Source: a virus
Length of the DNA: 50,880 nt
Virus genome (UHGV): UHGV-0174141
Reading direction: 5' to 3' (one strand)
Made by a program: the position numbers. Below, piece after piece: positions 9,001 to 12,000 of the stretch (positions are counted from its first letter, which is position 1; each line of letters starts with the position of its first letter).

Positions 9001-12000
9001 TTGCGGTATGCCTTGCGGCGTTGTGCTGAATTCATCTTGGTTGCCTCTCACCGTAAAGTAAGTGTGCTGATGAATGTAATATTAGAATACTTACATTTTA
9101 AGTCAAGAGGAAAATGTAAGAAAGCTTACTTTTTGTGGCGGGGTAATAAAAAACCCGCGGATGCGGGTTCGGGGGCTTAGAGATCGATGATTATTTGCTT
9201 AACTATACCGATCAGTTTTGTATCTTGGTTCACCTCTATAGGCTTAAACGCCGGGTTTAGAGGTATGAGATAGGAAAATGGAGGGTCTATGGCGAGCTTT
9301 TTAATGGTCGCTTCACCACCAGTAACGGTTTGGGCTATCACAATTTTGCCATTTGCCTCATCAACAAAACCGTATTCTGGCTCGACAATGACAACCGAAC
9401 CATCAGGAATGCTAAGCTCTTGGCTCGAAGTCATCGAGTGACCTTTAACACGTAATGCAAAAGCTGATTCAGATAGCTTCTTTGTAGTTTTAACCAGTTC
9501 GTTAGCTGGGTCGCCAATAACCTCGGTCCAGTTACCTGCCTGTACCCAAGATATAACAGGCACTTCTCTAACAGATATCAGGTTAATGTTGATACCGTTC
9601 TCGATATCGCCTGTACCGAAGATAAGCCATTCGGGAGAACATCTCAGGCACTGACATGCCAATACAAGATTCTCGCCTGATAACTTGGTGGAATCATTTT
9701 CCCATTGTGTAACCGCAGACGCGCTGACGCCGGCCCACTCAGCAACATCACGTTGCGTAAGTTTTTTCTGCTTACGTCTAAATCTTAATCTGCTGCCAAC
9801 GGTATCCATAAAATCTCCTCCGGATTACACGTTAGCAATCTTACATTTTATTGACGTAAGTATGCTGTCGATATAGCATGTAAGTATGCTAACTTTATAG
9901 GGGAGGTAATCCATGTTGAAAGCTAAAGTCGTCACGTTCTATGGCGGTATATCTAAAACCGCTACAGCTCTGGGAGTGACCCATAGTGCTGTATGCCAGT
10001 GGGGAGATGTTATCCCCGAAAAACAAGCGCTCTACATTGAGCGGCTCACAGATGGAAGGCTGAAGTACGACGCTTCCCTCTATCACAAGAATATCAATCC
10101 AACGACTCAGCAGTAACCACAGACGCAGGGGGTAAGCCGTGGGTATAGAACCTGAATGGAAAGTAGATAAGCAGCCGGCATGGCTGGTGGCCGCTATCAA
10201 AAAAACGATCACTGATTTGGACGGTGGTTACGTGGAAGCTGCGGAGTGGCTAGGCGTTACTGAAAACGCATTGTTTAACCGTTTACGTGCCGATGGTGAT
10301 CAGATTTTCCCTCTCGGCTGGGCAATGGTGCTGCAGCGTGCTGGTGGGTCAAATCATATTGCCAATGCTATAGCGCGTCACTCGAACGGCGTTTTTGTTC
10401 CGTTGGCAGATATTGAAGACGTGGACAACGCAGATATTAACCAGCGTCTTATGGAGTCCATTGAGTGGATAGGAAAACACTCGCAGTACCTGCGTAAAGC
10501 TACAGCTGATGGGGTAATTGACCAGGCAGAACGCGAGCAAATTGAGGAGAACAGCTATCAGGTGATGGCGAAATGGCAGGAACATTTAACGTTACTGTTC
10601 CGTGTCTTTTGTCAGCCAGAAAAGAGTGACGCCCGCGAGTGTGCAGCTCCGGGCGTCGTGGCGAATAAATCTTTGTGTATGGAGAAATAATCCGCATGAG
10701 CAATTTAATCGTAAATCTTCAATTACCGCAACTACGGATGTACCCGATCCCGGGCGTTTCGTCGTTTCGGTATGAGCGCATGGTATGCGGTAAATGGGTC
10801 GAGTGTAACCACAGTCGGGCACGCGGAGTTGTGGGGGTCTTTAACCGGAGGGCAAAAGCGTTATGCGAGAAGTTAACCGGAAGTTCAAAGACCACTATGG
10901 CAATCCAGTCAGAGTTATCCGCTGGGAGCCTGAGACACGTCGCGTCATCTACCTGCGGGAAGGCTATTCCCACGAGTGCTTTAGCCCACTCGATCAGTTT
11001 CAACGCAAGTTCAGGGAAGTAGAGGGCAGCCATGAGCAGTAAATTACACGGCCTCGTATGGGAAGCATGTGCTTTCAAAGGGCTGATAATCTCAGAAATA
11101 GCGGTCATGGCTCGCCTGGCAGATTTCAGTAATGACGAAGGTGTGTCATGGCCAGCGGTAACTACTATTCAGCGACAGATCGGCGCCAAGAGCGAGAATA
11201 CTGTCCGCAGCGCTATCAAAAAGCTTCAGGCTAAAGGCTGGCTGAAGAAGCAGGAACGGCGCGTGGGCGGAAAGAATAATTCGAACGTTTATAAACTCAA
11301 TGTTGACATGCTGGAACGTGCAGCAGCTGAAGCAAAAATCTTCTACGCAACGCCACGTGAACAATCAAAATTTGATGCCTCAGAATTTGAGGGTTCAAAA
11401 TTTGAGGGGGCAAATTCTGATGCCTCAAATAATGGGTCTGTACCCCCTCAAATATTGCGGGAGGACCCCTCAATGGTTGAAGGCGATCCGTCATTAGATC
11501 CGTCATTAGATCCGTCATCTAAAAAACCTTCTTGTCGGGCTCCTGCGGAACCCGACGATAAGCCGGATCCTGAAGTTGTTATTACCGATAACGCGATCGA
11601 AGTTCTGGCACACCTGAATCTGGTCAGCGGTTCCCGTTACCAGAAATCTAAGACCTCACTGGAGAACATTCGCGCGCGCCTCCGCGAAGGTCATACCGTT
11701 AGCGACTTGAAACTGGTAATCGACGTCAAACATGAGCACTGGCATGGCAACGACGAGCAATACCAGTACATGCGACCCGAGACACTTTTCGGCCCTAAAA
11801 AATTCGAGGGATATCTGCAAAGCGCTATCCGTTGGGATGCCAAAGGCCGCCCGCCAAGGGAGTTGTGGGACAAAACCAGACCGCGGGATGTTAATTCAAT
11901 TAGCCCAGTACAAACCACTATTCCACGGGGGTTCCGGGGATGAACATAGCCAAGTCGATCTTTGAATTTATTGAGAAGAATCCAGGCAAAATGCTGCGCG

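What the first reader, a model, noticed from the sequence alone, without database searches (positions are those of the whole stretch)
10863..11042. Unlisted 59-codon ORF translationally coupled to the replication gene
The frame MREVNRKFKDHYGNPVRVIRWEPETRRVIYLREGYSHECFSPLDQFQRKFREVEGSHEQ has a more protein-like composition than the overlapping 115-aa ORF on the track, and its stop overlaps the replication ATG (ATGAGCAGTAA).
Basis: seen in the sequence. Interest (0 to 1): 0.25.

Follow-up and report, generated by a model that had tools for sequence, protein, structure and literature searches.

The report
Small gene nested inside ymfM
The 59-codon frame is a real, already catalogued small prophage gene (DUF4222, function unknown). 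The surprise is that the longer ymfM-type gene overlapping it in another frame is also kept intact by selection, so this stretch of DNA seems to be read in two frames just ahead of the replication gene.

Summary
Window 10863..11042 (+) is an ATG-started 59-codon ORF whose TAA lies inside ATGAGCAGTAA, the start of the replication-initiator gene (ATG 11032).

It is a genuine gene. It matches Pfam DUF4222 (62 bits against a cut-off of 27) and phrog_1343. The identical protein is already named "DUF4222 domain-containing protein" in NCBI. Across about 90 distinct homologues its frame shows pN/pS 0.15. So the ORF itself is not new.

What I did not find described is the second frame. The overlapping "115-aa" ORF is a ymfM-family gene, more likely 108 aa from ATG 10696.
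- Its first ~60 residues form a conserved, confidently folded domain.
- Its last ~45 residues are read in the +1 frame across DUF4222. Their sequence drifts like non-coding DNA (pN/pS 2.0).
- Even so, 106 distinct homologues carry no stop there, although about 194 stop-forming codons are expected at 507 at-risk codons.
- Its stop is always made by a rare NTA codon at DUF4222 codon 53, nine bases before the next gene's ATG.
- Stand-alone DUF4222 genes usually do carry stops in that frame.

The best reading is a conserved dual-coding cassette, ymfM/DUF4222, feeding the replication gene.

One side consequence concerns E. coli K-12. Published "YmfM = SfiC" division-inhibitor constructs carry both frames.

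The parts
10863..11042 (+). DUF4222 small-protein gene (59 aa), the ORF of the finding
   Evidence: Pfam PF13973: 62.4 bits against cut-off 27. phrog_1343: 3e-31. Identical protein is in NCBI as a DUF4222 domain-containing protein. pN/pS 0.147. AlphaFold2 pLDDT 80.6, a small beta-barrel.
10847..10852 (+). Shine-Dalgarno-like GGAGGG, 11 nt (from the GGAGG core) upstream of the DUF4222 ATG and lying inside the ymfM coding frame
   Evidence: Sequence. An SD-like motif 3-12 nt upstream of the start is present in 53 of 58 distinct upstream contexts among homologues, including non-homologous ymfM N-domain types.
10696..11022 (+). ymfM-family gene (108 aa from ATG 10696; listed as 115 aa from GTG 10675), in the +1 frame relative to DUF4222
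   Evidence: phrog_1170: 1.7e-13. It sits directly after a YmfL equivalog (NF041471, 186.8 bits), as in E. coli e14. Residues 10-62 have pLDDT about 90. N-domain pN/pS is 0.44 in this frame.
10863..11022 (+). Dual-coding overlap: DUF4222 codons 1-53 and the ymfM tail (residues 56-108), read in two frames
   Evidence: The +1 frame is open in 106 of 106 distinct homologues. None of 507 at-risk codons forms a stop, against 194 expected. The tail is predicted to be disordered (pLDDT below 50), and its amino-acid sequence is unconstrained.
11020..11022 (+). TAG stop of the ymfM frame, formed by DUF4222 codons 53/54 (GTA GAG). It overlaps the replication gene's SD (GAGGG, 11022-11026), lies 9 nt before its ATG and is in the same frame as it
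   Evidence: DUF4222 codon 53 is NTA (a rare codon) in 110 of 110 distinct homologues. The downstream ATG always begins 12 nt after the first base of this stop and is always in the same frame, across several different downstream genes.
11032..11042 (+). ATGAGCAGTAA: the replication-gene ATG and the DUF4222 TAA, an 11-nt overlap
   Evidence: Sequence. The same geometry is seen in e14 (ATGAGCACTAA) and in 57 further loci.
11032..11943 (+). Replication-initiator / primosomal 'O-like' gene (303 aa)
   Evidence: Pfam HTH_36 (1.1e-8) plus Phg_2220_C (3e-23). TIGR02220. Homologues are annotated as DNA replication protein O or primosomal protein.
10139..10690 (+). YmfL / CII-like regulator gene immediately upstream of ymfM
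   Evidence: NCBIfam NF041471 phage_reg_YmfL: 186.8 bits against cut-off 90. Pfam Phage_CP76.

Best explanation
Window 10863-11042 encodes a real 59-residue protein of the DUF4222 family. It is translated from its own ribosome-binding site and ATG. It is predicted to fold into a Tudor/SH3-like five-stranded beta-barrel.

The gene lies in the early rightward operon of a lambdoid (e14-like) Klebsiella prophage: cro, then ymfL/cII-like, then ymfM, then DUF4222, then the replication initiator. It is nested out of frame in the 3' half of the ymfM-family gene (10696-11022).

ymfM itself encodes a conserved, folded N-terminal domain of about 60 residues. This is followed by a disordered tail of about 45 residues that is read in the +1 frame over DUF4222.

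Both frames are translated.
- Selection keeps the DUF4222 amino-acid sequence.
- In the ymfM frame selection keeps only two things: the absence of stops, and a stop codon placed in the Shine-Dalgarno region 9 nt before the replication gene's ATG.

Ribosomes from both upstream frames therefore terminate within about 10 nt of the replication start. The most likely reason for keeping the ymfM frame open is to deliver ribosomes to the replication gene by termination-reinitiation coupling, and to avoid fusing ymfM to it.

What is shown: gene reality, the nesting, frame maintenance, and the conserved geometry.
What is inferred: actual translation of both frames, the coupling, and any biochemical role of DUF4222. 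Its invariable position directly upstream of replication initiators suggests a replication or host-takeover accessory role.
For: DUF4222 membership and prior annotation. PGAP annotates the e14 homologue as a 59-aa gene with a TTG start and an AAGGAG SD.

Purifying selection acts on the DUF4222 frame only within the overlap. pN/pS is 0.147 with pS 0.72 (near saturation), against 2.03 and 2.26 for the other two frames.

Upstream of 10863 the selected frame switches to ymfM: 0.44 against 1.1-1.2.

The ymfM frame is open in all 106 distinct homologues (63-100% DUF4222 identity).
- The per-sequence chance of this, given the protein sequence and background codon usage, has a median of 0.063.
- None of 507 at-risk codons forms a stop, against 194 expected.
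- Val is never GTG or GTA at risk sites (0 of 286) but is so at 41 of 146 safe sites. Leu is never CTG at risk sites (0 of 163) but is at 56 of 116 safe sites.
- A within-gene synonymous-codon shuffle gives a joint probability of 1e-13 over 29 clusters.

The stop is maintained: DUF4222 codon 53 is NTA in 110 of 110.

The downstream ATG always begins 12 nt after the first base of that stop and is in the same frame, across downstream genes with at least six unrelated N-termini.

Natural controls:
- Stand-alone DUF4222 genes carry internal +1-frame stops in 16 of 22 distinct sequences.
- A second, roughly 50%-diverged DUF4222 subfamily that again follows a ymfM N-domain has none.

DUF4222 has its own SD in 53 of 58 upstream contexts.

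Structure predictions.
Against: There is no direct evidence of translation of either frame; no ribosome profiling or proteomics was available here.

The amino-acid sequence of the ymfM tail evolves like a non-coding frame and is predicted to be disordered. The "second protein-coding" function therefore rests on stop avoidance and stop placement alone.

The homologues are related, so the counts are not fully independent.

The replication gene has its own good SD (GAGGG, 5 nt from the ATG), and no RNA structure masks it (z = +1.26, no conserved pairs). Coupling is therefore not obviously required.

Stand-alone arrangements in which the upstream gene simply stops at the DUF4222 ATG also exist, which shows that read-through is not the only workable design.

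Confidence: 0.78

Rival explanations
1. Only DUF4222 is functional in the overlap. ymfM effectively ends after its N-terminal domain of about 60 residues, and the long open tail is a tolerated accident with no selected role.
For: The tail has pN/pS 2.03, the same as the unused frame at 2.26. The tail is predicted to be disordered. N-domain-only genes of 59-67 aa exist. Gene callers and PGAP usually omit the long ORF.
Against: At 507 at-risk codons there are no stops where 194 are expected, even though synonymous sites are near saturation. A rare NTA codon is kept at DUF4222 codon 53 in 110 of 110 sequences to make the stop. Stand-alone DUF4222 genes do accumulate +1-frame stops.
Confidence: 0.1
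2. The ymfM tail is kept open because the tail itself matters as part of the YmfM protein, for example as a disordered region needed for division inhibition, stability or partner binding. On this view ribosome delivery to the replication gene is not the reason.
For: Full-length e14 YmfM expressed from a plasmid blocks Z-ring formation. The tail is slightly richer in Ser/Thr and poorer in Lys/Arg than synonymous shuffles that stay open (mean z +1.4 and -0.8). Leu43 of DUF4222 never uses CTG, which would put a Trp in the tail.
Against: There is no detectable amino-acid constraint. Much the same Ser/Thr-rich composition appears in the +1 frame of a stand-alone DUF4222, so it is largely a by-product. 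This view does not explain why the stop is fixed 9 nt before the downstream ATG across different downstream genes. Natural N-domain-only versions exist.
Confidence: 0.3
3. A programmed -1 ribosomal frameshift from the ymfM frame into the DUF4222 frame makes a YmfM-N::DUF4222 fusion, and DUF4222 is not made on its own.
For: The frame relationship is right for a -1 shift: ymfM is +1 relative to DUF4222.
Against: No conserved slippery heptamer is present. Only 40 of 112 loci have any XXXYYYZ, mostly at +144 near the end, and none is shared across the family. DUF4222 has its own start codon and SD in nearly all loci. DUF4222-frame stops lie 3-54 nt upstream of that start. Stand-alone DUF4222 genes exist. 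A frameshift would not explain an open ymfM frame downstream of the shift site.
Confidence: 0.03
4. The 59-codon ORF is spurious and only the 115/108-aa ymfM frame is coding. This is how the MG1655 reference and several phage records annotate the region.
For: MG1655 annotates only ymfM, as 'cell division inhibitor YmfM'. Phage records annotate YmfM.
Against: The DUF4222 frame has pN/pS 0.147. The Pfam and PHROG matches are strong. Homologues occur as stand-alone genes where the other frame is closed. The fold is predicted with confidence.
Confidence: 0.01

Closest known systems
DUF4222 (Pfam PF13973; phrog_1343), e.g. E. coli e14 WP_001250269.1
   Same: Full-length match above the curated threshold. 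Same length (59 aa). Same position between ymfL/ymfM and the replication gene. Same stop/ATG overlap. 81% identical to the e14 protein.
   Different: Nothing material; it is a member. The family has no known function and no solved structure.
E. coli K-12 e14 ymfM (b1148), published as the SfiC SOS-inducible cell-division inhibitor
   Same: The overlapping 108-aa ORF is the positional and phrog_1170 counterpart. It starts right after ymfL, ends 9 nt before the replication gene, and contains the nested DUF4222 frame in the same register.
   Different: The N-terminal domain in the window ('LPQLRM.P.PG..FRYER...KWV.CNHSRA') belongs to a different sequence type from that of e14. Division inhibition has been shown only for the e14 ORF, and only with constructs that also carry DUF4222.
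Lambda Rz/Rz1 (a gene nested entirely in the +1 frame of another lambdoid phage gene)
   Same: An out-of-frame nested pair in a lambdoid phage. The embedded gene has its own RBS, and both frames are kept open across relatives.
   Different: In Rz/Rz1 both products are sequence-constrained, interacting lysis proteins, shown by experiment. Here the host-frame segment is unconstrained in sequence, and neither product has been detected. This comparison rests on my own knowledge and was not tested here.
Termination-reinitiation translational coupling in phage and bacterial operons (stop and start within a few nucleotides, e.g. ATGA or TAATG junctions)
   Same: The ymfM-frame stop lies 9 nt before, and the DUF4222 stop 8 nt after, the replication ATG. 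Stand-alone relatives use classic ATGA junctions.
   Different: Two overlapping upstream frames converge on one start. The functional dependence is untested, and the replication gene has its own SD.

Membership tests
DUF4222 (PF13973) | Score above Pfam's gathering threshold over the full model | tested here: met
   62.4 bits against 27; residues 3-54 match model positions 4-53 of 53.
DUF4222 (PF13973) | Conserved core residues and small size (about 56-82 aa) | tested here: met
   59 aa. The invariant G13, V16, R20, W21, I29, Y30, R32, P42, F46, F50 and E52 are shared with 54 homologues.
DUF4222 (PF13973) | A defined biochemical function | not testable with these tools
YmfM family (phrog_1170 / E. 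coli b1148), for the overlapping ORF | Profile match and synteny between ymfL and the replication gene | tested here: met
   phrog_1170: 1.7e-13 over residues 8-108. The upstream gene is a YmfL equivalog, with a replication gene downstream.
YmfM family (phrog_1170 / E. coli b1148), for the overlapping ORF | Inhibition of FtsZ-ring formation on expression (the SfiC phenotype) | not testable with these tools
   Shown only for the whole e14 ORF, which also contains DUF4222.
Out-of-frame nested (dual-coding) gene pair | Both frames free of stops across diverged relatives, beyond the chance expectation | tested here: met
   106 of 106 open; no stop-forming codons where 194 are expected; shuffle product 1e-13.
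Out-of-frame nested (dual-coding) gene pair | The embedded gene has its own start codon and RBS | tested here: met
   ATG preceded by GGAGGG in the window. An SD-like motif is present in 53 of 58 contexts.
Out-of-frame nested (dual-coding) gene pair | Purifying selection on the amino-acid sequence of both products within the overlap | tested here: not met
   DUF4222 frame 0.147, but ymfM frame 2.03, about the same as the unused frame. Only the open frame and the stop position are conserved.
Out-of-frame nested (dual-coding) gene pair | Both products detected by experiment | not testable with these tools
   No ribosome-profiling or proteomic data were found.
Programmed -1 ribosomal frameshift | A conserved slippery heptamer X XXY YYZ in the zero frame | tested here: not met
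   No heptamer is shared across the family.
Termination-reinitiation translational coupling | The upstream stop lies within a few nucleotides of the downstream start | tested here: met
   The ymfM-frame stop ends 9 nt before the ATG in all loci. The DUF4222 stop lies 8 nt after it in the 59-aa forms.
Termination-reinitiation translational coupling | Downstream translation depends on upstream translation | not testable with these tools
   This needs reporter fusions. No masking RNA structure was found.

The most novel reading that the evidence does not exclude
The ymfM/DUF4222 overlap is a genuinely dual-coding device conserved across Enterobacterales prophages. In E. coli K-12 e14, the division-inhibition (SfiC) phenotype assigned to YmfM is wholly or partly caused by the nested, unannotated DUF4222 protein. 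Every published ymfM clone and deletion includes that frame with its own strong SD.
Probability: 0.2. Interest if true: 0.65.

Novelty: new member of a known kind. Interest (0 to 1): 0.42.

Why it matters
The ORF itself adds nothing new, because RefSeq already lists this exact protein. The context does matter.

First, it is a statistically clean case of a long out-of-frame overlap (160 nt) in a dsDNA prophage in which one frame is conserved as protein. The other frame is conserved only as an open, correctly terminated reading frame. That pattern points to selection on the act of translation, or on a sequence-free tail, rather than on a second folded protein.

Second, it exposes an annotation conflict in E. 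coli K-12. The reference record has ymfM only, whereas PGAP records have DUF4222 only. Published genetic evidence for YmfM as the long-sought SfiC division inhibitor does not separate the two frames.

Two point mutations, each silent in one frame, would settle which product does what.

Tried and rejected
- Programmed -1 frameshift: no conserved slippery heptamer.
- RNA element: the Rfam scan of 9800-11600 found nothing relevant.
- RNA structure masking the replication RBS: the window folds less well than shuffles (z +1.26), and 14 homologues show no consensus structure or covariation.
- Anti-phage defence role: no PADLOC match for either protein.
- NCBIfam: no model for either small protein.
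- Solved-structure relatives by sequence: none.
- DUF4222 fold: only generic small-barrel matches, so I do not infer function from it.
- Selection on tail composition: weak and largely a by-product of the DUF4222 codons.
- Literature: no paper found on DUF4222 function, on a ymfM overlap, or on ribosome profiling of ymfM. The e14 analysis paper PMC331406 is not held. The screen papers give only clones that contain both frames.
- My first frame bookkeeping was off by one. I took the ATG as 10697 and ymfM as the -1 frame. This was corrected: the ATG is 10696 and ymfM is the +1 frame, the same frame as the replication gene.
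Full report
**1. The observation**

Window 10863..11042 (+) is an ATG-started ORF of 59 codons plus TAA.
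- The TAA (11040-11042) lies 8 nt after the ATG (11032) of a 303-aa gene, inside the string ATGAGCAGTAA. That gene carries HTH_36 and Phg_2220_C domains and is a lambdoid "O-like"/primosomal replication initiator.
- A GGAGGG (10847-10852) precedes the ORF's ATG.
- The ORF is overlapped by the listed 115-aa ORF 10675..11022, whose likelier start is ATG 10696, giving 108 aa.
- After correcting an initial off-by-one, the long ORF is in the +1 frame relative to the 59-codon ORF. It is also in the same frame as the replication gene, separated from it by a single TAG at 11020-11022 and three sense codons.

**2. Context**

The region is the immunity/early-right operon of an e14-like lambdoid prophage:
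- cI-like repressor, 9177..9809 (-)
- P22-type Cro, 9913..10116
- YmfL/CII-like regulator, 10139..10690 (NCBIfam equivalog NF041471)
- the overlapping pair discussed here
- the replication gene

The DNA is 99% identical to Klebsiella phage Kp4866-6 and about 70-74% identical to E. coli e14-like phages.

**3. The 59-codon ORF is a real and already known gene**
- It matches Pfam DUF4222 (PF13973) at 62.4 bits against a gathering score of 27, and phrog_1343 at E = 3e-31.
- A database search returned 103 homologues across Klebsiella, Enterobacter, Citrobacter, Escherichia, Salmonella, Kosakonia and others. Essentially all are named "DUF4222 domain-containing protein".
- The identical sequence is in NCBI under that name, on about 1000 contigs.
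- In PGAP-annotated E. coli K-12 derivatives the e14 homologue is annotated as a 59-aa gene. It has a TTG start 6 nt (to the end of AAGGAGA) after that SD motif, and the same stop/ATG overlap.
- Among about 90 distinct homologous sequences (3704 pairs, mean 76% nucleotide identity) its frame has pS 0.72 and pN 0.106, a ratio of 0.147. Site entropy at codon positions 1, 2 and 3 is 0.34, 0.20 and 1.08.
- AlphaFold2 with 55 sequences gives pLDDT 80.6 for a five-stranded small barrel with a short helix.

**4. The overlapping long ORF is not an artefact either**

Phage records and the MG1655 reference annotate it as ymfM; MG1655 names b1148 "cell division inhibitor YmfM". The window version matches phrog_1170.

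Upstream of 10863 the ymfM frame is the one under purifying selection: pN/pS 0.44 against 1.1-1.2 in the other frames, over 58 distinct N-domains. AlphaFold2 folds residues 10-62 confidently (pLDDT about 90; three strands and a long helix). Residues 65-108, which make up the overlap, fall below 50. The N-domain has no structural match.

This N-domain occurs in at least three divergent sequence types in front of the same DUF4222. It also occurs as a stand-alone gene of 59-67 aa.

**5. The key result: both frames are maintained**

I fetched 125 homologous loci. In every one of 106 distinct DUF4222 sequences (63-100% protein identity) the ymfM frame is open from the ymfL stop right through DUF4222 codons 1-52. 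It ends at the same place, +157 from the DUF4222 start, or +160/+163 where there are indels. The other alternative frame is closed after a few codons.

How unlikely this is:
- Given each DUF4222 protein sequence and background codon usage, the chance of an open +1 frame has a median of 0.063 per sequence.
- At 507 codon instances where a synonymous alternative would create a ymfM-frame stop, 194 stop-forming codons are expected and none is seen.
- Valine is GTT or GTC 286 times and GTG or GTA never at such sites. It is GTG or GTA 41 of 146 times at safe sites in the same genes.
- Leucine is never CTG at risk sites (0 of 163), against 56 of 116 at safe sites.
- Shuffling synonymous codons within each gene, a conservative test, gives a joint probability of 1e-13 over 29 clusters defined at 85% identity.

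The mirror-image signal is just as strong. DUF4222 codon 53 is ATA, TTA, GTA or CTA in 110 of 110 distinct sequences, while the encoded residue varies (I, L or V). These are all rare codons. Together with the next base they form the ymfM-frame TAA or TAG.

Yet the amino-acid sequence of the ymfM tail is unconstrained: pN/pS is 2.03 against 2.26 for the unused frame.

**6. Natural controls**

In L130 and L132 an antirepressor gene separates the ymfM N-domain gene from a divergent, stand-alone DUF4222 that again abuts the replication gene.

A scan for that subfamily gave 22 distinct stand-alone DUF4222 sequences. Sixteen of them carry one to three internal stops in the +1 frame. It also revealed a second subfamily ("HVTGYD", about 50% identical) that once more follows a ymfM N-domain. 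In this subfamily the +1 frame is again free of stops and ends 8 nt after the replication ATG.

An open +1 frame is therefore not an intrinsic property of DUF4222 coding sequence. It goes with an upstream ymfM reading into it.

**7. Geometry at the 3' end**

In all loci the downstream gene's ATG begins 12 nt after the first base of the ymfM-frame stop and lies in the same frame. This holds although the downstream proteins have at least six unrelated N-termini; most carry Phg_2220_C, and some HTH_36/DnaD_N.

The stop sits in the downstream gene's Shine-Dalgarno region: TAGAGG or TAAAGGA, and in the window TAGAGGGCAGCCATG. Losing it would fuse YmfM to the replication protein. One degenerate locus, L048, does read on for 385 codons.

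The DUF4222 stop lies 8 nt after the ATG in the 59-aa forms. It lies 35-41 nt after it in the 68-70-aa forms.

**8. How it most likely works**

*Shown:* a real DUF4222 gene nested out of frame in ymfM; selection against stops and for a fixed stop in the ymfM frame; DUF4222's own SD in 53 of 58 contexts.

*Inferred:*
- Both frames are translated.
- Ribosomes finishing ymfM, and in the 59-aa forms DUF4222 as well, terminate at the replication gene's ribosome-binding site and reinitiate there. A premature ymfM-frame stop would then uncouple the replication gene, and loss of the stop would fuse the two proteins.
- The alternative reason for an open frame, that a disordered tail is needed by the YmfM protein itself, cannot be excluded. 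I rate it lower because there is no sequence constraint and because the stop position is fixed relative to the next gene.

A programmed -1 frameshift fusion lacks any conserved slippery site. No RNA structure masks the replication RBS, so any coupling would work by proximity only.

**9. Comparison with what is known**

The ORF is a member of DUF4222; all the sequence criteria are met. The long ORF is a member of the ymfM family by profile match and synteny.

The arrangement works like the known nested out-of-frame pairs of lambdoid phages. Rz/Rz1 is the classic case (from my own knowledge). It differs in that one partner's overlapping segment is conserved only as an open frame.

I found no paper that mentions the ymfM/DUF4222 overlap or a function for DUF4222. 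The searchable library is incomplete, and the 2004 e14 analysis is not held.

**10. A consequence outside the window**

The work identifying e14 ymfM as SfiC used the whole ymfM ORF in pBAD24 and whole-gene deletions. The original screen clone spanned ymfL', ymfM and ymfN'.

The ymfM ORF contains DUF4222 codons 1-53 of 59, together with its AAGGAG SD and TTG start. The published data therefore do not say which frame's product blocks division.

The MG1655 reference annotates only ymfM, and PGAP annotates only DUF4222.

**11. Verdict**

The ORF is already catalogued. The conserved dual-frame arrangement appears not to have been described and is moderately interesting.

Noticed in passing
L213 (NC_000913.3 1203822-1204160) versus L004:1686-1865: The MG1655 reference record annotates only ymfM ('cell division inhibitor YmfM'). 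PGAP records of K-12 derivatives annotate only the nested DUF4222 gene. Neither shows both. Published ymfM/SfiC constructs and deletions carry both frames.
   Followed up: partly
window 10989-10991 (DUF4222 Leu43) and the same codon in homologues: This Leu codon is CTC (42) or CTT (42) and never CTG. CTG would not create a ymfM-frame stop; it would put a Trp in the tail. No explanation so far.
   Followed up: no
L130:2501-3559 and L132:2501-3550: A Rha/ANT antirepressor gene is inserted between a stand-alone ymfM N-domain gene (59-63 aa) and a divergent stand-alone DUF4222. This shows that the two modules are separable. In L132 the +1 frame of DUF4222 has three stops.
   Followed up: yes
L155-L208 (e.g. 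L158:1337-1684): This is a second DUF4222 subfamily ('HVTGYD'). Here DUF4222 lies entirely inside the ymfM ORF. DUF4222, ymfM and the replication gene use all three frames within about 10 nt of the replication ATG.
   Followed up: partly
L048 (Citrobacter braakii ATCC 51113): The ymfM-frame stop is missing here, and the frame runs on for 385 codons into a Rha/ANT-like gene. The N-domain looks degenerate. It is the only exception in the set, apart from a contig-end case (L049).
   Followed up: no
L014 (record titled Vagococcus sp. WN89Y) and L021 (Geobacteraceae MAG): Genome records of non-enterobacterial organisms carry this typically enterobacterial prophage region at about 78% protein identity. 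Contamination or misbinned contigs are likely.
   Followed up: no
window 11940-12398 and 12577-13530: Downstream of the replication gene lie two more ORFs. One is a 152-aa ORF with weak PerC/DsrD-like Pfam hits, below threshold. The other is a 317-aa ORF in the position where related phages annotate a DNA N-6-adenine methyltransferase. Neither was examined further.
   Followed up: no
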